Positions 19,193-44,077 of a DNA stretch of 64,000 nucleotides are shown one piece after another. Within the stretch, counting starts at the first letter, position 1; every line of letters starts with the position of its first letter. The notes under the pieces were generated by a model. It worked only from the letters and a program-made list of their open reading frames with translations. It was not told the DNA's origin and did no database searches. The stretch spans positions 1 through 64,000 of IMG/VR virus record IMGVR_UViG_3300032322_001517. One strand, written 5' to 3'. The translations under genes and the position numbers were made by a program. This stretch comes from a virus.

Positions 19193-20301
19193 TAACATAT
19201 CATCCAGATAAATTTGGATTTTATACTGTAGGAAGTTTAAAAACATACAGTAAATTCGAGGCTATCGAATTATCACAAAAAATAAACACTCCTATAGAAT
19301 GGAATTTTAATGATGAAGTTTTTTCTTCAATTGATTGGAAGAAAGAACCTGATATGCCATTGTGGGAGATGTACAAAGATAGAGCAAGACAAATCAGAGA
19401 AGCATATGACTACGTAGTTCTATGGTATTCTGGTGGTAGCGATAGTCATAACATGTTATGCGCTTGGTTAGAGGCTGGTTGTAAACTTGATGAAGTTGCA
19501 ACTACAGTTAACTACGAAGCAACTGGTGACAAAAACAATTATATGAACACTGAGATATATAATGTTGTTATGCCTCATGTTGAACTACTACAACAACGTC
19601 ATGAATTTAAATTTAGAGTTGTTGATATATCACAAATGACTTTAGATTTATTTGATGTTTGGAATACTAATTTCGAGTACAATATAAATTTTCATTTTAG
19701 TCCAAATTATCCTGCAAGATGTTTGCTTCGCGAAAAAATTGAAGATTATAAGAACATCATTAATTCAGGTAAGAAATTGTGTTTTGTTTGGGGTAAAGAA
19801 AAACCTTTTATTAAATACGATAACAAACAACATTTTTTCTTTATTGATAATGTGGACAACGCAGTTAGTCCACATGTACAGAGAAAATATTTTGATGGGT
19901 GGTACGATGAATTGTTTTACTGGACTCCAGATTATCCATTGTTACCTGTAAAAATGTCTCATGTGATAAAAAACTATCTAGATATTAGCGAAGATACAGA
20001 TAATTATTTCATCAACGAAAATAAAGCGATAAATTATTACTCAACAAAATTAGATATGTTTTTAAAACCAAATCATGTTAAGTTATTATTATATCCTAAA
20101 TGGTCTGATATTATTCATGATGCAGGTAAACCTTTATCTTTAACATATAGTCAGAGAGATTTTTGGTTTTTAAGTTCTAAAATGGATAAAAGAAATAGAT
20201 ATATAGATATAACGAATAATTATTTCGATAGATTCCAAACTCGAGATGTTTTTCGAAACGCAGTTATGATTTTTGAGAGTAAAAAATATTACCTTGAATA
20301 A
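19189..20301 (+). CDS. PP-loop (adenine nucleotide alpha-hydrolase-like) protein of unknown function
   Basis: VVLWYSGGSDSH PP-loop; AT-rich. Confidence 0.65.
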   Translation: MITYHPDKFGFYTVGSLKTYSKFEAIELSQKINTPIEWNFNDEVFSSIDWKKEPDMPLWEMYKDRARQIREAYDYVVLWYSGGSDSHNMLCAWLEAGCKLDEVATTVNYEATGDKNNYMNTEIYNVVMPHVELLQQRHEFKFRVVDISQMTLDLFDVWNTNFEYNINFHFSPNYPARCLLREKIEDYKNIINSGKKLCFVWGKEKPFIKYDNKQHFFFIDNVDNAVSPHVQRKYFDGWYDELFYWTPDYPLLPVKMSHVIKNYLDISEDTDNYFINENKAINYYSTKLDMFLKPNHVKLLLYPKWSDIIHDAGKPLSLTYSQRDFWFLSSKMDKRNRYIDITNNYFDRFQTRDVFRNAVMIFESKKYYLE

Positions 20302-20306
20302 TTCTA

Positions 20307-20335
20307 TTGACATTTTAGATGGGGTAAGGTAATAT
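20307..20335 (+). promoter_or_regulatory. Early sigma70-like promoter
   Basis: TTGACA-N17-TAATAT upstream of tRNA-Leu. Confidence 0.7.
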
Positions 20336-20355
20336 ATGTATATGATGAAGTTTAC

Positions 20356-20432
20356 GCCCACGTAGACCAACAGGCAGAGTCAGGAGACTTAAAATCTCCG
20401 TAGTGTCAGTTCGAATCTGACCGTGGGCACCA
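20356..20432 (+). tRNA. tRNA-Leu(TAA), short variable arm
   Basis: Cloverleaf GCCCACG/CGTGGGC, GGAGA-CTTAAAA-TCTCC, TTCGAAT, CCA. Confidence 0.93.
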
Positions 20433-20451
20433 ATTTAACATGGAGTAAATA

Positions 20452-20556
20452 ATGCCGCATCCACATAAGAATCGTCCCCGTAAGGGTCGTCGTAAGGTTG
20501 GCTCTAAGAAGAGGCGTTCTCGTCGTTTGAAGGGTAAGAAGCGCGGAAATCGATAA
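20452..20556 (+). CDS. 34-aa Arg/Lys-rich peptide (not in ORF track)
   Basis: GGAG RBS; MPHPHKNRPRKGRRKVGSKKRRSRRLKGKKRGNR*. Confidence 0.75.
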   Translation: MPHPHKNRPRKGRRKVGSKKRRSRRLKGKKRGNR

Positions 20557-20564
20557 ATAATTTT

Positions 20565-20626
20565 GGGATCAATTCAGCATCATCGCCGTAAGGCACTTTT
20601 TTTTTGGAAAAAGCAAAGATGATCCC
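20565..20626 (+). ncRNA. Y-RNA-like array unit 1
   Basis: Closing helix GGGATCA/TGATCCC, CAGCA at +11, internal GCC-GTAA-GGC and U/A hairpins. Confidence 0.75.
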
Positions 20627-20636
20627 GTTAAGTTCT

Positions 20637-20854
20637 AGGGTAGTTACAGCATACGCCTCATAGCACCGAAGAAGTCTGCGGACTTTCTTCTCCAGTTAGA
20701 TACCTTCGGGTGATCTAACAGACTGTCTAGAGTCTTACTAGAATAGAGTGGTTGATTGTACCTTTACAGCTACTTCGTGGTACGCCATGATAGCCGAGGA
20801 AGGGTTGAGAAGTCCAACTCGATAAACTATCAAAGACGACAATCCACCTACCCT
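20637..20854 (+). ncRNA. Y-RNA-like array unit 2 (large multi-hairpin insert)
   Basis: Closing helix AGGGTAG/CTACCCT, CAGCA at +11, several hairpins incl. UUCG and UACG tetraloops. Confidence 0.75.
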
Positions 20855-20864
20855 GTTTAGTTTT

Positions 20865-20981
20865 AGGTTCACTACAGCATCAAATTGCAATACCTCCCAT
20901 AAAGGAGAAGTTTCGGTGCGAATCCGAGCGGTCTCATGAGACTGTGGTGTAAGAGTAGCACGCTAAAGCAAATGTGAACCT
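20865..20981 (+). ncRNA. Y-RNA-like array unit 3 (circularly permuted tRNA-like, CAT anticodon loop)
   Basis: Closing helix AGGTTCAC/GTGAACCT; order anticodon arm, T arm, looped acceptor stem, D arm. Confidence 0.8.
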
Positions 20982-20991
20982 GTTAAGTTTT

Positions 20992-21110
20992 AGGATTGTT
21001 TCAGCAAACAACTTTCCCAGCCAAAATTGGGACGTAGCTCATTTGGTAGAGCAAGAGTCTAATACACTCTCGGTAGTTGGTTCGATTCCAACCGTTAAAA
21101 AAGCAATCCT
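20992..21110 (+). ncRNA. Y-RNA-like array unit 4 (permuted tRNA-like, AAT anticodon loop)
   Basis: Closing helix AGGATTGTTT/AAGCAATCCT; TCCCA-G-CCA precedes TGGGACG, then D, anticodon and T arms. Confidence 0.8.
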
Positions 21111-21114
21111 GTTA

Positions 21115-21143
21115 TTGACTTTAAATACTGTCTAAGGTAATAT
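21115..21143 (+). promoter_or_regulatory. Early sigma70-like promoter inside the array
   Basis: TTGACT-N17-TAATAT, similar to the phage early promoters on the - strand. Confidence 0.72.
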
Positions 21144-21158
21144 AAGAATATTGAGTTT

Positions 21159-21211
21159 GGGATCAGTTCAGCAATCAACTGTTTTGCATTTAAACAAACC
21201 AAGTTGATCCC
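21159..21211 (+). ncRNA. Y-RNA-like array unit 5
   Basis: Closing helix GGGATCAG/TTGATCCC, CAGCA at +11, TGTTT-N7-AAACA hairpin. Confidence 0.75.
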
Positions 21212-21220
21212 GTTAATTCT

Positions 21221-21275
21221 AGATTGACTGCCGCAACTAAACAATTACACTTGAAATGTAACCAAAGTTCAATCT
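21221..21275 (+). ncRNA. Y-RNA-like array unit 6 (anticodon stem-loop mimic)
   Basis: Closing helix AGATTGA/TCAATCT, CCGCA at +11, TTACA-CTTGAAA-TGTAA hairpin. Confidence 0.75.
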
Positions 21276-21295
21276 GTTAAACATGGAGAAATGAA

Positions 21296-22735
21296 ATGAC
21301 TACTTTTGCTAATGCTGTTCGTAATCAGGAAGCTCGTACTGCCAATGGCATGAAGGCTCGTGCTTCTACTGCTAATGCTTGTGTTGATCTGTTCTTCAAG
21401 ATCGGTGCATCACGTGGCAAGAACATCGTTCCTGACTTCACTGCTGCTTATGTTCAGGACCGTGATATCGCTTCACGTATTGCTCTTTGGGCTCGTGATG
21501 CTCGTGGTGGTGCTGGTGAGCGTAAGCTGTTCCGCGATATCCTCAAGGAACTTGCTGTTCATGACGCAGATCGTGCGATTGCTCTTATGCAAAAGGCTCC
21601 TTATGTTGGTCGCTGGGATGACTTGCTTGTATTTGAGGATGAAGGTGTTCTTCAGCACTACGCTTTTGAAATGATTCGTCATGCGCTCGAAGACAACAAC
21701 GGTCTTTGTGCCAAGTGGATGCCTCGTAAGGGTCCAGTAGCTGCAAAGCTACGTGCTCATCTTGGTTGGTCGCCAAAGCGTTACCGCAAGACTCTTGTGT
21801 CTTTGACCAAGGTTGTTGAGCAGCAGATGTGTGCTAATCAGTGGGATGAGATTAACTTCAATCATGTTCCCTCAGTAGCTTCTGCTCGTTACAAGAAGGC
21901 GTTTGCTCGTCATACTGAAAAGTATAAGGAGTGGACTACTGCTCTTGTTTCTACCGATCCGAAGGTTAAGGAGACTGTAAAGGTTAACGCTGGTGCAGTT
22001 TACCCTTACGATGTTCTGAAGGGTCTTATCAACGTTGGTTATCATGCCAACTATGATAAGTCAAACCTTGATCATATTGTTGCTCAGTGGGAAGCTCTGC
22101 CGAACTTCGTTGGCGATGCAAATATTTTACCTTTGGTAGACGTTTCTGGTTCAATGACTTCTAAGGCAGGTGGGCTCAACTCCAAGTCCGTTGTGACTTG
22201 TCTGGATGTTTCTGTTTCGCTGGGTCTTTATCTGGCAGACAAGAACAAGGGTAAGTTCAAGGATACGTTCTTGACTTTCTCTAGCGCCCCTCAGCTGCTG
22301 AACCTTCGTGGCAACGTTGTCGAGAAGATCAAGCAAATGGTTACTTCAGAATGGCAAATGAGCACTGACCTTCACAAGGCAATGGACAAGATCCTTAGCG
22401 TTGCTATTCAGAACACTGTTCCTCAGGAGGAAATGCCTGAGATGCTTCTGATCCTGTCAGATATGCAGTTCAACCAGTGCACTCGCTTTGATGATTCTGC
22501 AATGCAGATGATTCATCGCAAGTTCGAAAACGCTGGTTACAAGGTTCCTGCTATCGTGTTCTGGAATCTGAATGCTGCGGATAATGTTCCTGTTAAGCAC
22601 GATGCTTCTGGTGTTGCGCTTGTATCAGGGTTCTCGCCTTCTATCGTAAAGTCTATCCTGTCTGCGGATATGGAACAGTTTACTCCTGAAGGTATCATGA
22701 TGAAGACTATTATGTCGGAGCGTTACTCGCTCTGA
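21296..22735 (+). CDS. DUF2828-family TROVE/Ro60-like protein with C-terminal vWA domain
   Basis: TANG...CVDLFF..RDARGGAGER..GRWDDL..CAKWMPR helical region; vWA MIDAS DVSGS and LSDMQF, IVFWNL. Confidence 0.85.
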   Translation: MTTFANAVRNQEARTANGMKARASTANACVDLFFKIGASRGKNIVPDFTAAYVQDRDIASRIALWARDARGGAGERKLFRDILKELAVHDADRAIALMQKAPYVGRWDDLLVFEDEGVLQHYAFEMIRHALEDNNGLCAKWMPRKGPVAAKLRAHLGWSPKRYRKTLVSLTKVVEQQMCANQWDEINFNHVPSVASARYKKAFARHTEKYKEWTTALVSTDPKVKETVKVNAGAVYPYDVLKGLINVGYHANYDKSNLDHIVAQWEALPNFVGDANILPLVDVSGSMTSKAGGLNSKSVVTCLDVSVSLGLYLADKNKGKFKDTFLTFSSAPQLLNLRGNVVEKIKQMVTSEWQMSTDLHKAMDKILSVAIQNTVPQEEMPEMLLILSDMQFNQCTRFDDSAMQMIHRKFENAGYKVPAIVFWNLNAADNVPVKHDASGVALVSGFSPSIVKSILSADMEQFTPEGIMMKTIMSERYSL

Positions 22736-37588: not shown

Positions 37589-37675
37589 TGGTGGGTAGAG
37601 AAGGATTCGAACCTCCAACGCCTATAAGGAACGAATTTACAGTCCGTCGCAGTCCACCGTCTCTGCAGTCTACCC
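37589..37675 (-). tRNA. tRNA-Tyr(GTA)
   Basis: Loop CTGTAAA, long variable arm. Confidence 0.93.
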
Positions 37676-37687
37676 AAACTTTATACT

Positions 37688-37719
37688 CTTATATTACCCT
37701 AGACCGGAATTAAAGTCAA
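37688..37719 (-). promoter_or_regulatory. Conserved phage early promoter
   Basis: TTGACTTTAATTCCGGTCTAGGG-TAATAT-AAG. Confidence 0.8.
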
Positions 37720-42510: not shown

Positions 42511-42525
42511 ATGAACTTTATATTA

Positions 42526-42557
42526 CTTATATTACTCTAGACCGGAATTAAAGTCAA
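42526..42557 (-). promoter_or_regulatory. Conserved phage early promoter
   Basis: TTGACTTTAATTCCGGTCTAGAG-TAATAT-AAG. Confidence 0.8.
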
Positions 42558-44077
42558 TAATGTATTTTATTCCCAACAACCAACATATCGATGCTTTTTG
42601 AAGCGAATTCTTTTTCAGCCGAAGATATCTTACTAGCTATTGGCTTCCCCGAAACATTAAGACTAGTATTCAGCAACGCTGGGCATTCAGTAATTTTATA
42701 AAACTCTTCTAATATAGATCTCAAAGCAGTACCATTTTTAGAAACTGTTTGAACTCTACATGTACCATCAACATGAGTTACCGATGGAACCGATATCTTA
42801 GGTACTCCGACATATAGCATATATGGATTTTCATACATTAACCCAAAGCTATCTTTATGTTCTTCTAAAACAGAAGCACCAAATGGTCTGAAATATTCTC
42901 TATTCTTTATCTGATTGATAATATCTTTACCATTGGTAACTCTAGGATCAAAGAGTATAGATCTATTACCTAATGCTCTTGGACCTATTTCACCATTGCC
43001 TTGATAAAGAGCTACGACTGCACCATCAGCTAAATGTTTAGCAACTATTTTTGCATTTTCCATACTTAGAAAGTCTTTAGGAGCCTCATCAGTTGTGCTA
43101 AATGGGAAATTCTTCAACTTCATTTTAGGAAGATTGTATTTTCTCCTAAGCATTTCCATTGCACCAATAGATAAACCTTCATCTCCGCAATACGGAACTA
43201 CAACAAGATTAGGATATTTGTTTTTTAATAAAGTATTCCATATAACATTCTGCGCTACACCACCAGAATAACCTACACGATCATTTGGGGATACAAATTT
43301 ATCAAACAACTCTAAAACGATTTCCCCTGTTCTTTCGTGAACAGTTCGAACCCAATTTAATTTTTGTTGTTTCGATAAACTTTGGGTGTTTAGAAAATTT
43401 AAATAATTATCCATATTAAAGAGAGTGTCGCCACCAGATACCCTCTTTCTATAAAGAGCATTTACATTGTAAATATTATATTTTTGTAATACTTCAAGGT
43501 ATTCATAATCTATGTTACCGTAAGATTGTAAACCCATCAATTTTCCAGGTCTGTCGATAGGTCTTCCGGTATTACTAAGTTCGTCAAAGAGATATGAAAT
43601 ATATGTTATGCCATGACCTATAGATCCATAATCTTGAACAATACCTTTAGTTATTAATTCATCACCAAAGTATACATGCCAACAATCATTAACTAATCTA
43701 TCAGCAGAATCTCTGTACTGAGGTCCAGATCCATCTAACACAATATTTTTATCTACGTCATGCATAAAACAAACGCTCAATGCGTGAGCTAGATGATGAT
43801 TGATAGATGTTATGTTTTTATTGACGCCTGTATCAAGTAATAATTGATAGAGTAAACTGTCAACGACAACGATTTCATCCATATTTTGGAAAGATGTATT
43901 CCAGTATTTGGAAAAAATGCTATTAAAAAATGTTACACAAAGGTCAACATTAATCTTTTTAAGGCCAAAATGTTTAGAATCTAAAATTCTTTCCAACTTT
44001 AGATAATGTGTATTATCGCCATCAAAATAAGTAATATTTGTGTCGTGAGAATAACCACCAATAGATAATAATTTCAT
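42554..44077 (-). CDS. Carbamoyltransferase (NodU/CmcH family)
   Basis: HHLAHA, GKLMGLQSYG, SGGVAQN, GPRALGNRSIL, REYFRPF, LNTSLN. Confidence 0.92.
   Translation of the reverse strand: MKLLSIGGYSHDTNITYFDGDNTHYLKLERILDSKHFGLKKINVDLCVTFFNSIFSKYWNTSFQNMDEIVVVDSLLYQLLLDTGVNKNITSINHHLAHALSVCFMHDVDKNIVLDGSGPQYRDSADRLVNDCWHVYFGDELITKGIVQDYGSIGHGITYISYLFDELSNTGRPIDRPGKLMGLQSYGNIDYEYLEVLQKYNIYNVNALYRKRVSGGDTLFNMDNYLNFLNTQSLSKQQKLNWVRTVHERTGEIVLELFDKFVSPNDRVGYSGGVAQNVIWNTLLKNKYPNLVVVPYCGDEGLSIGAMEMLRRKYNLPKMKLKNFPFSTTDEAPKDFLSMENAKIVAKHLADGAVVALYQGNGEIGPRALGNRSILFDPRVTNGKDIINQIKNREYFRPFGASVLEEHKDSFGLMYENPYMLYVGVPKISVPSVTHVDGTCRVQTVSKNGTALRSILEEFYKITECPALLNTSLNVSGKPIASKISSAEKEFASKSIDMLVVGNKIHY

What the first reader, a model, noticed from the sequence alone, without database searches (positions are those of the whole stretch)
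20992..21110. Unit 4 holds a second permuted tRNA, broken in the acceptor stem, with CCA trapped in a loop and an AAT anticodon
TCCCA-G-CCA (21015-23) precedes TGGGACG-TA-GCTC-ATTTGGTA-GAGC-A-AGAGT-CTAATAC-ACTCT-CGGTA-GTTGG-TTCGATT-CCAAC-CG. Joining the final CG (21093-94) to TCCCA restores a perfect TGGGACG/CGTCCCA acceptor stem plus G73 and CCA. These ends resemble this phage's tRNA-Gln(CTG). As in unit 3, the break falls 2 nt into a helix strand, but at a different position, which suggests independent captures of tRNAs into the same scaffold. An AAU anticodon is very rare in bacterial tRNAs.
Basis: partly seen in the sequence, partly recalled or inferred. Interest (0 to 1): 0.85.

Follow-up and report, generated by a model that had tools for sequence, protein, structure and literature searches.

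The report
Sealed tRNA mimic on Ro60-type handle
Unit 4 is a real phage small-RNA gene: a complete tRNA shape whose amino-acid-accepting end is closed by a hairpin, mounted on a conserved "handle" next to a Ro60-like protein gene, so it is most likely a Y-RNA-type tRNA look-alike and not a working or broken tRNA gene.

Summary
TCCCA-G-CCA (21015-23) lies 4 nt upstream of a full cloverleaf (21028-21094). Joining the final CG to TCCCA gives a perfect 7-bp acceptor stem plus G73-CCA.

The capped acceptor is conserved. Positional orthologues beside Ro-like genes of 73-74% identity (L009/L010/L110, L333) replace TCCCA/TGGGA with ATGGC/GCCAT, so all five pairs change on both sides. The ordinary linear acceptor falls to 1 of 5 outer pairs there. 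Those orthologues close the stem with GNRA tetraloops, so the CCA is not a conserved part of this unit type.

Unit 4 is the fourth of six units that share a covarying closing helix and a TWCAGCA motif. The array sits just upstream of a 479-aa protein whose predicted fold matches Ro60.

Best reading: a Y-RNA-like partner RNA that displays a tRNA mimic, with the handle entering between tRNA positions 67 and 68. That attachment point is new relative to published YrlA.

It is still open whether the window's GCCA loop is cut to give a free CCA end. A sister class with the same break keeps N-CCA in 15 of 18 sequences.

This scan has noted the same handle family on many other phage DNAs. I found no paper or Rfam family describing it. 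Verdict: a new variant of a known kind.

The parts
20992..20999 (+). Handle closing helix P1, 5' strand (AGGATTGT; MFE extends it to 21001)
   Evidence: Pairs with 21103-21110 in 8 of 8 positions. The helix covaries in orthologues and across 458 distinct units.
21000..21006 (+). Conserved handle motif TT-CAGCA (CAGCA at 21002-21006), always 10 nt from the unit's 5' end
   Evidence: 5' consensus AGG-N5-N-T-W-CAGCA-A over 458 units. The unit finder itself required the RGG and C(A/C)GCA letters.
21007..21014 (+). 5' linker AACAACTT between the handle and the tRNA module
   Evidence: Unpaired in the MFE. It evolves fast: 3 changes against L004 while the body is identical.
21015..21019 (+). Upstream copy of acceptor 3' strand, tRNA positions 68-72 (TCCCA)
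   Evidence: Pairs with 21028-21032 at probability 0.87-1.0. It is replaced by ATGGC, with a compensating GCCAT, in L009 and L333.
21020..21027 (+). Capping loop: G73, CCA (21021-23), spacer AAAT
   Evidence: Seen in sequence. Shared with L004 only. The orthologues have GTAA or GCAA.
21028..21034 (+). Acceptor 5' strand, tRNA positions 1-7 (TGGGACG)
21037..21052 (+). D arm (GCTC-ATTTGGTA-GAGC)
   Evidence: Rfam tRNA alignment. Identical in L004 and L009.
21054..21070 (+). Anticodon arm AGAGT-CTAATAC-ACTCT, anticodon AAT at 21061-63
   Evidence: The stem covaries and the anticodon differs in orthologues (TGT, TTC).
21076..21092 (+). T arm GTTGG-TTCGATT-CCAAC
21093..21094 (+). CG, tRNA positions 66-67, pairing with C6 and G7. 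The chain leaves the acceptor stem after this point.
   Evidence: Invariant CG/CG in all four distinct sequences.
21095..21102 (+). 3' linker TTAAAAAA
   Evidence: A-rich in all orthologues. As a linear acceptor strand it pairs 3 of 5 here and 1 of 5 in orthologues.
21103..21113 (+). P1 3' strand GCAATCCT plus the conserved GTT tail
20565..21280 (+). The whole array of six handle units to which unit 4 belongs
   Evidence: Unit finder and repeats.
21115..21143 (+). Promoter-like site (TTGACT, 17 nt, TAATAT) directly after unit 4. The same element stands at 20307-20335.
   Evidence: Copies also lie in the tRNA clusters.
21296..22735 (+). Ro60-like protein gene (479 aa; Pfam DUF2828 + DUF7788; phrog_850 'RNA-binding protein')
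   Evidence: In the AlphaFold2 model, the top 13 Foldseek PDB matches are all Ro60/TROVE over the full length.

Best explanation
Unit 4 is a Y-RNA-like noncoding RNA of the phage.

Anatomy. Its two ends pair into an 8-10-bp helix that is followed by the conserved TT-CAGCA motif; I call this the 'handle'. The handle is inferred to be the docking site for the Ro60-like ring protein encoded 186 nt downstream. It carries a complete tRNA-shaped module with D arm, anticodon arm, variable loop and T arm. The acceptor stem is made of 2 bp with the strand that follows the T arm plus 5 bp with a strand lying upstream, and it is sealed by a loop. The handle therefore enters the tRNA shape through a gap between positions 67 and 68. 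The elbow and the anticodon arm stay exposed, and the acceptor end is closed.

Shown: the sequence, the preferred fold, the conservation and covariation of the sealed acceptor, the scaffold family, the genomic link to the protein, and the protein's Ro60-like predicted fold.

Inferred: that the protein binds the handle. Also inferred, by analogy with Ro60-Y RNA particles in which the Y RNA tethers a second factor to the ring, is that the tRNA mimic recruits or distracts a tRNA-binding factor. Candidates include an RNA-processing or repair enzyme, or a host nuclease that reads anticodon arms.

The GCCA in the window's loop is most simply a leftover of the junction between two CCA-encoding tRNA genes from which the cap was taken.
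For: - Structure: capped against linear acceptor is -26.2 against -18.6 kcal/mol in the window, -25.1/-18.6 in L004 and -30.7/-23.8 in L009. Cap pair probabilities are 0.87-1.0. The MFE of L333 gives exactly P1 + cap + D + anticodon + T.
- Covariation: the cap is TA GC GC GC AT in the window and GC CG CG AT TA in L009/L333, so 5 of 5 pairs change on both sides. The linear reading gives 3 of 5 and then 1 of 5 pairs.
- GNRA tetraloops (GTAA, GCAA) in two lineages argue for a permanently closed end.
- Same position in the array: L110 also has unit, then promoter-like site, then small unit, then Ro-like gene.
- Scaffold: 458 distinct units in held loci. Pair 7 of P1, which the finder did not require, pairs in 90% of them, with four Watson-Crick pair types.
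- Link to the protein: 26 of 58 units found by DNA pattern alone have the Ro-like gene within the few kb held. Units also lie beside a homologue of only 24.5% identity.
- Protein: Foldseek E = 7e-8 to 5e-4 against phage phiLo Ro60, D. radiodurans Rsr, and Xenopus and human Ro60.
- Precedent: YrlA Y RNAs carry a loop-closed acceptor stem and lie beside Ro60 genes (PMC4201824). Phage Ro60 binds phage-encoded Y-like RNAs (PMC12135203).
- The anticodon is not held constant: AAT, TGT and TTC in orthologues, and 15 different anticodons among 49 scaffolded modules, differing even within the same scaffold.
Against: - No binding or expression data.
- The handle lacks the GNCGAA / CGAA motif of published bacterial and phage Y RNAs, and no Rfam family other than tRNA matches at E up to 10. 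Ro binding is therefore inferred from gene linkage alone.
- Only three lineages (four distinct sequences) of this exact unit type were found. In L004 the T68-to-G change breaks one cap pair.
- The protein model is of moderate confidence (pLDDT 73, pTM 0.61; TM 0.5-0.58 to Ro60).
- The N-CCA kept in 15 of 18 members of the sister class suggests that a CCA in such loops can be functional. That would argue against 'mere leftover' here.
Confidence: 0.6

Rival explanations
1. Same Ro60-handle RNA, but the loop is cut. RNase P cleaves before U21028, as at any junction between two tRNA genes. Exonucleases then trim the spacer back to A21023. The result is a two-piece RNA held together by the handle helix and the 5-bp acceptor segment, with a free ...G-CCA end that can meet CCA-reading or aminoacylating enzymes while tethered to the Ro-like ring.
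For: - The loop G-CCA-AAAT has the form of the tRNA-tRNA junctions in these phages, that is CCA plus a 2-10-nt spacer.
- M. smegmatis YrlA, with a 7-bp loop-closed acceptor stem, is cut by RNase P in vitro, and is cleaved and receives CCA in vivo (PMC4201824).
- A sister class of units has the same break (2-3 nt after the T arm, 4-5 nt upstream). It keeps N-CCA at the start of the loop in 15 of 18 distinct sequences, while the stem covaries and the rest of the loop varies in sequence and in length from 4 to 8 nt.
- U1-A72, G2-C71, G3-C70 and G73 are the acceptor identity set of E. coli tRNA-Gln (my knowledge; not tested here).
Against: - The closest orthologues of unit 4 have GNRA tetraloops and no CCA.
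- G73 can pair with U21027, giving a 6-bp stem with a 6-nt loop in the MFE.
- The anticodon (Ile-type) and the acceptor (Gln-type) do not match one synthetase (my knowledge).
- There are no end-mapping data.
Confidence: 0.27
2. A circularly permuted tRNA gene in the strict sense. The handle is removed, the ends at positions 67/68 are ligated, and the loop is opened, giving a normal tRNA-Ile(AAU, perhaps edited to IAU) that decodes.
For: - Re-permutation gives a flawless cloverleaf with G73-CCA.
- The body scores as a tRNA (48.4 bits).
- This phage also has A34 tRNAs, Thr-AGT and Arg-ACG.
Against: - There is no bulge-helix-bulge motif at the ends. Instead there is an 8-10-bp helix with an asymmetric loop, and that helix and motif are conserved across hundreds of units with non-tRNA cargo.
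- The orthologues lack CCA and change the anticodon.
- No RNA ligase was identified among the nine flanking ORFs I scanned.
- The splicing endonuclease that such genes need is not known in bacteria (my knowledge).
Confidence: 0.05
3. An ordinary linear tRNA-Ile(AAU) gene with a weak acceptor stem that happens to lie in the array. The upstream complement is chance or the remnant of a preceding tRNA.
For: - ARAGORN and Rfam call it as a tRNA.
- 3.5% of tRNAs have some upstream complement.
Against: - The acceptor has two adjacent G.A mismatches, no CCA and an A-rich 3' strand.
- The linear pairing drops to 1 of 5 in orthologues while the upstream pairing is kept by double changes.
- The unit is enclosed by the handle helix.
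Confidence: 0.04
4. The hairpin at 21015-21032 is a transcription terminator for the minus strand.
For: The simple scan flags it on the minus strand.
Against: - The tail AAGTTGTTTG is not a U-run.
- All neighbouring genes are on the plus strand.
- The orthologues keep the hairpin in register with the tRNA body.
Confidence: 0.01

Closest known systems
YrlA-type Y RNAs of bacteria and mycobacteriophages, bound by Ro60/Rsr (Chen et al. 2014, PMC4201824; structure preprint 10.1101/312249)
   Same: - Encoded next to, and on the same strand as, a Ro60-type gene.
- The ends pair into a stem.
- The cargo is a tRNA mimic with T arm, D arm and a loop-closed acceptor stem.
- Several Y RNAs can occur per locus.
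- In M. smegmatis the closed acceptor is cut by RNase P and receives CCA.
   Different: - The handle motif is TWCAGCA, not GNCGAA, and Rfam gives no match.
- The partner protein scores as DUF2828/DUF7788, not Pfam TROVE.
- Unit 4 keeps a full anticodon arm.
- The handle joins inside the acceptor 3' strand (67/68) instead of replacing the anticodon arm.
- The locus has six units in tandem.
Yrl1/Yrl2 of Thermus phage phiLo with phage Ro60 (NAR 2025, PMC12135203; PDB 9KOP, 9L5Y)
   Same: - Phage-encoded Ro60 with Y-like RNAs just upstream of its gene.
- This protein is the best structural match of the window's protein.
   Different: - Those RNAs are stem-bulge-stem with a CGAA motif, and that paper describes no tRNA module.
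- Sequence identity between the proteins is about 15%.
Two-piece (circularly permuted) tmRNA genes of alpha-proteobacteria and some cyanobacteria (my knowledge; not read here)
   Same: A bacterial precedent for a tRNA-like acceptor end written in permuted order, with an internal CCA followed by an intervening segment that is removed to expose the CCA.
   Different: - Unit 4 has no tag reading frame, no pseudoknots and no G3.U70.
- ARAGORN finds no tmRNA.
- Unit 4 has a full anticodon arm and a Ro-type handle.
Permuted tRNA genes of the red alga Cyanidioschyzon merolae (reviewed in PMC4090602 and PMC3400036, which I listed but did not read)
   Same: The 3' acceptor strand and CCA-side sequence lie upstream of the 5' half in the gene.
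   Different: - Those genes mature through a bulge-helix-bulge cut and a circular intermediate into working tRNAs.
- Here the ends are clamped by a conserved protein-linked handle, and the orthologues have no CCA.

Membership tests
YrlA-type Y RNA | Gene lies beside, and on the same strand as, a Ro60 orthologue | tested here: met
   The gene at 21296-22735 starts 186 nt downstream on the same strand. In its AF2 model, the top 13 PDB matches are Ro60/TROVE. Pfam itself gives DUF2828/DUF7788, not TROVE.
YrlA-type Y RNA | 5' and 3' ends pair into a stem that carries the Ro60 site | tested here: met
   P1 pairs 8-10 bp in the MFE and covaries. That it is the protein's binding site is inferred only.
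YrlA-type Y RNA | Conserved GNCGAA(N0-1)G motif near the 5' end, and a match to the curated covariance model | tested here: not met
   The motif here is TT-CAGCA. cmscan of 20200-21400 at E up to 10 finds only tRNA and noise.
YrlA-type Y RNA | tRNA-like module ordered T arm, loop-closed acceptor, D arm, with the Ro stem in place of the anticodon arm | tested here: not met
   The acceptor is loop-closed, but the order is cap, D, anticodon arm, T. The anticodon arm is complete and the handle joins at 67/68.
YrlA-type Y RNA | Bound by the Ro60 protein in vivo | not testable with these tools
   Needs immunoprecipitation or a gel-shift assay.
Canonical tRNA gene | Cloverleaf with D, anticodon and T arms and the conserved tertiary nucleotides | tested here: met
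   Rfam tRNA scores 48.4 bits. U8, A14, G18, G19, A21, U33, G53 and the TTCGA T loop (54-58) are present.
Canonical tRNA gene | 7-bp acceptor stem formed by the contiguous 5' and 3' ends, followed by a discriminator and CCA (or a site for CCA addition) | tested here: not met
   The linear acceptor has 5 of 7 pairs with two G.A mismatches, and 1 of 5 outer pairs in orthologues. The 3' side runs into the handle.
Permuted tRNA gene (C. merolae type) | Bulge-helix-bulge motif at the precursor ends for the splicing endonuclease | tested here: not met
   The ends form an 8-10-bp helix followed by an asymmetric internal loop of about 13 nt against 6-8 nt. No 3-4-3 bulge-helix-bulge is present.
Permuted tRNA gene (C. 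merolae type) | Circular intermediate and a mature, charged tRNA | not testable with these tools
   Needs RT-PCR across the junction and acid-gel analysis.
Two-piece tmRNA | Tag reading frame, pseudoknots, alanine identity pair G3.U70 | tested here: not met
   The pair is G3-C70. The unit is 119 nt and has no room for a tag. ARAGORN's tmRNA search is negative.

The most novel reading that the evidence does not exclude
Phage Ro60-type particles carry split tRNAs. In unit 4, and in the sister class that keeps N-CCA in the loop, host RNase P and 3' trimming open the loop. This leaves a tRNA-shaped RNA with a free, chargeable or enzyme-accessible CCA end that stays tethered to the ring protein through the handle. 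Such a particle could work as a bait or sensor for enzymes or toxins that act on tRNA acceptor ends and anticodon loops, with the fast-changing anticodon setting which one.
Probability: 0.2. Interest if true: 0.85.

Novelty: new variant of a known kind. Interest (0 to 1): 0.6.

Why it matters
What bacterial and phage Y RNAs do with their tRNA-like modules is still unknown. This locus adds three things.
- The phage handle can be attached at a new place, inside the acceptor stem, while the whole anticodon arm and the elbow stay on display.
- Natural variants exist side by side: a sealed acceptor with a tetraloop, and a sealed acceptor with a tRNA-junction loop containing CCA.
- The anticodon changes between close relatives.

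Together these give simple contrasts for experiments on which tRNA-binding factor the particle engages. They also show one route by which RNAs become circularly permuted, namely re-use of the junction between tandem tRNA genes.

Tried and rejected
- DNA search of GenBank phages with the array found only tRNA-Leu look-alikes.
- The pattern CAGCA + D arm brought in GOLLD RNAs (Rfam RF02032). They share the pentamer by chance and are not this scaffold.
- The first broad pattern scan was mostly chance hits: 8 of 130 matches sat in real scaffolds.
- A scan for CCC-GTT scaffolds gave no new unit-4-type member.
- MAFFT misaligned the cap because the loops differ in length. I therefore counted pairs by explicit register in a script instead of using count of structure pairs, and built no covariance model.
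- My first explicit energy calculation had the closing helix two bases out of register. It is corrected.
- Pfam at E up to 10 shows no TROVE match, and the PDB sequence search was empty. The Ro60 likeness rests on the predicted fold.
- The minus-strand terminator reading was rejected.
- No source junction for the cap was found in the window. tRNA-Gln(CTG) is followed by a different tRNA.

Full report
WHAT IS THERE

In order it runs:
- AGGATTGT (20992-99) and TT-CAGCA (21000-06);
- linker AACAACTT (21007-14);
- TCCCA (21015-19) and the loop G-CCA-AAAT (21020-27);
- TGGGACG (21028-34), then TA;
- the D arm (21037-52), then A;
- the anticodon arm AGAGT-CTAATAC-ACTCT (21054-70);
- CGGTA, then the T arm (21076-92);
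- CG (21093-94) and linker TTAAAAAA (21095-21102);
- GCAATCCT (21103-10), then GTT.

ARAGORN calls 21027-21101 a tRNA-Ile(AAT). Rfam's tRNA model gives 48.4 bits with two mismatched acceptor pairs and no CCA. When the letters are re-ordered so that 21015-23 follow 21094, ARAGORN draws a perfect 7-bp acceptor stem, then G73 and CCA.

IS THE UPSTREAM PAIRING REAL?

Thermodynamics favours it.
- The MFE of the 119-nt unit contains the outer helix, the hairpin at 21015-21032, and the D and anticodon arms (z = -3.16).
- Cap pairs have probabilities of 0.87-1.0, and the outer pairs of the linear acceptor about 0.
- With all other helices fixed, the capped form scores -26.2 kcal/mol and the linear form -18.6.

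Chance alone is not negligible. 3.5% of 490 tRNAs in the held loci have some 5-bp upstream complement, mostly from the tail of a preceding tRNA. The bare NCCA-hairpin motif occurs about once per 1.6 kb. The decisive evidence therefore comes from comparison.

Using the neighbouring protein as a probe, I fetched 80 viral and 80 metagenomic loci.
- L004 (protein 97% identical) has the same unit, with an identical tRNA body and three changes in the 5' linker. One of these changes (T68 to G) breaks one cap pair.
- L009, L010 and L110 (73%) and L333 (74%) have a unit at the same place in the array, directly before an internal promoter-like site, a small unit and the protein gene.
- These units share the CG/CG pairs, a near-identical T arm and similar linkers. 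L009 also has an identical D arm; in L333 the D stem is shortened to 3 bp.
- Their cap is ATGGC-GTAA-GCCAT or ATGGC-GCAA-GCCAT.
- All five cap pairs differ from the window's on both sides and still pair. The linear alternative falls to 1 of 5 outer pairs.
- The anticodon stem also covaries at two or three of its five pairs.

It is passed for the sealed, split acceptor stem. It fails for the CCA: two of the three lineages close the stem with a GNRA tetraloop.

CONTEXT

Unit 4 is one of six units between 20565 and 21280. Each is closed by a helix that begins RGG and ends CCY, and each has C(A/C)GCA exactly 10 nt from its 5' end and GTT after its 3' end.

- Helix pairs 1-6 were required by the finder. 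Pair 7 was not, yet it pairs in 90% of units, with four Watson-Crick pair types.
- Of 58 units found purely by DNA pattern in the viral collection, 26 have a homologue of the neighbouring protein within the few kb held.
- Units also stand beside a homologue of only 24.5% identity.

That protein (479 aa) scores as DUF2828 + DUF7788 and phrog_850 'RNA-binding protein'. It has more than 8,000 relatives and occurs in 710 GenBank phage records. Its AlphaFold2 model (pLDDT 73) matches Ro60 proteins over the full length in the top 13 PDB hits. Thermus phage phiLo Ro60 is the best of these (E = 7e-8, TM 0.56-0.58).

Ro60 proteins work with Y RNAs. Bacterial and mycobacteriophage YrlA Y RNAs carry a tRNA mimic with a loop-closed acceptor stem (PMC4201824), and phiLo Ro60 binds two Y-like RNAs encoded upstream of its gene (PMC12135203). 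The published RNAs use a GNCGAA / CGAA motif. The units here do not, and Rfam finds nothing but tRNA.

HOW THE CARGO IS JOINED TO THE HANDLE

Across the loci, the same handle carries tRNA-derived cargo in several connectivities.
- YrlA-like: T arm, sealed acceptor, D arm. This includes the window's unit 3, and 48 distinct examples were parsed.
- Unpermuted: tRNA-like bodies whose weak acceptor region runs straight into the handle. Examples are L283 and L290, which share unit 4's handle helix but carry anticodon TCA.
- Unit-4 type.
- A sister class without an anticodon arm that has the same break as unit 4. It has 2-3 nt of the acceptor 3' strand after the T arm and 4-5 nt upstream.

In that sister class, 15 of 18 distinct sequences have N-CCA as the first four loop letters and three have GCTA. 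Meanwhile the stem covaries (CTCGC/GCGAG, TGCC/GGCA, TGGC/GCCA, CGGC/GCCG, CTTC/GAAG and others), and the rest of the loop varies in sequence and in length from 4 to 8 nt. Among the YrlA-like units, only about 6 of 48 have a CCA-type loop.

The loop 'N-CCA plus a short spacer' is the form of the junction between two neighbouring tRNA genes in these phages, whose tRNA genes encode CCA. This suggests how such caps arise. It also suggests that the cell's tRNA-processing enzymes could treat them as junctions.

MECHANISM

The best-supported reading (0.6) is an intact, sealed tRNA mimic displayed on a Ro60-type handle. The structure, its conservation, and the link between handle and protein gene are shown. 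Binding and function are inferred by analogy with Ro60-Y RNA particles.

The main rival (0.27) is the same particle after cleavage in the loop, which would give a free GCCA end. [quoted passage not shown] It is weakened by the tetraloops of unit 4's own orthologues.

The remaining readings are poorly supported:
- a true permuted tRNA gene matured by ligation (0.05);
- an ordinary linear tRNA (0.04);
- a minus-strand terminator (0.01).

The acceptor letters U1-A72, G2-C71, G3-C70 and G73 match the glutamine identity set of E. coli. The anticodon is isoleucine-type. G73, G4-C69 and A29-U41 do not fit isoleucine identity. This is my knowledge, not tested here. Such a chimera fits a mimic better than a decoder.

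Anticodons differ among modules on the same scaffold. Among 49 parsed modules the counts are TCT 15, TTT 9, GAA 5, and twelve others. This could reflect selection to match different tRNA-reading factors, or simply a lack of constraint. I cannot tell which.

COMPARISON AND NOVELTY

The unit works like a YrlA-type Y RNA but fails three of that family's defining features that I could test: the motif or model match, the module order, and replacement of the anticodon arm. It is therefore a relative, not a member.

I found no paper in the held library that links DUF2828 proteins to RNAs, and none on phage Y RNAs with this handle.

This scan has itself noted the same handle family many times on other phage DNA, with the handle in the D loop, the anticodon stem or the anticodon loop. 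The attachment inside the acceptor 3' strand, with a tRNA-junction loop as the cap, is the particular contribution of this locus.

LIMITS

- Only four distinct sequences of the exact type were found.
- The unit finder imposes part of the scaffold it reports.
- The Ro60 likeness rests on a model of moderate confidence.

Noticed in passing
L148, L171, L188, L191, L256, L284, L303, L313, L314, L281, L282, L277, L278, L021, L280, L026 (units listed): A class of handle units without an anticodon arm. They have a T arm, 2-3 nt of acceptor 3' strand, and an upstream 4-5-nt strand followed by an almost invariant N-CCA (15 of 18; three have GCTA) in an otherwise variable loop. The stems covary. A possible helix between the pre-T region and the 3' linker would make a pseudoknot.
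   Followed up: partly
Held loci; table: The anticodon triplet differs between units that share the same 10-nt scaffold start (for example TCT or TTT in otherwise near-identical units L263/L272 and L177/L302). TCT and TTT are the commonest.
   Followed up: partly
L097, L108, L114, L118, L121, L132, L133: In jumbo-phage tRNA arrays, good linear tRNAs are enclosed by a different stem (AAGACGCA...TGCGTCTT) with CACAGCA. They carry both an upstream and a downstream copy of the acceptor 3' strand, so two mutually exclusive acceptor pairings are possible. No Ro-like gene lies in the held stretch.
   Followed up: no
L084:11242-11709, L091:5258-5722: GOLLD RNAs (Rfam RF02032, 187-200 bits) that embed a tRNA-like element with the same D arm as unit 4. 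L108:4796-4906 holds a drum RNA.
   Followed up: no
L098 and L130: A normal tRNA-Ile(GAT) with the same D arm and T stem as unit 4. Its acceptor strands are the exact swap of unit 4's: 5' CGTCCCA and 3' TGGGACG.
   Followed up: no
window 20452-20556 (+): A 34-codon ORF for a very Arg/Lys-rich peptide between tRNA-Leu(TAA) and unit 1. It has no Pfam or PHROG match.
   Followed up: no
window 20307-20335, 21115-21143; also 37673-37719 and 42514-42560 (minus strand): The same promoter-like element (TTGAC-N17-TAATAT with conserved flanks) precedes the array, splits it after unit 4, and recurs in the tRNA clusters.
   Followed up: no
L119:6960-7420 (minus strand): Three tRNA-like hits, two of them lacking acceptor ends in the Rfam alignment, directly downstream of a 24.5%-identical homologue of the Ro-like protein. 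At least one sits in an AGG...CCT handle.
   Followed up: partly
L005, L006, L328 at the position of unit 4: Relatives at 83-92% protein identity carry a different, YrlA-like minimal unit (T arm, sealed acceptor, D arm) in the last slot before the internal promoter. So cargo is exchanged within a fixed array position.
   Followed up: partly
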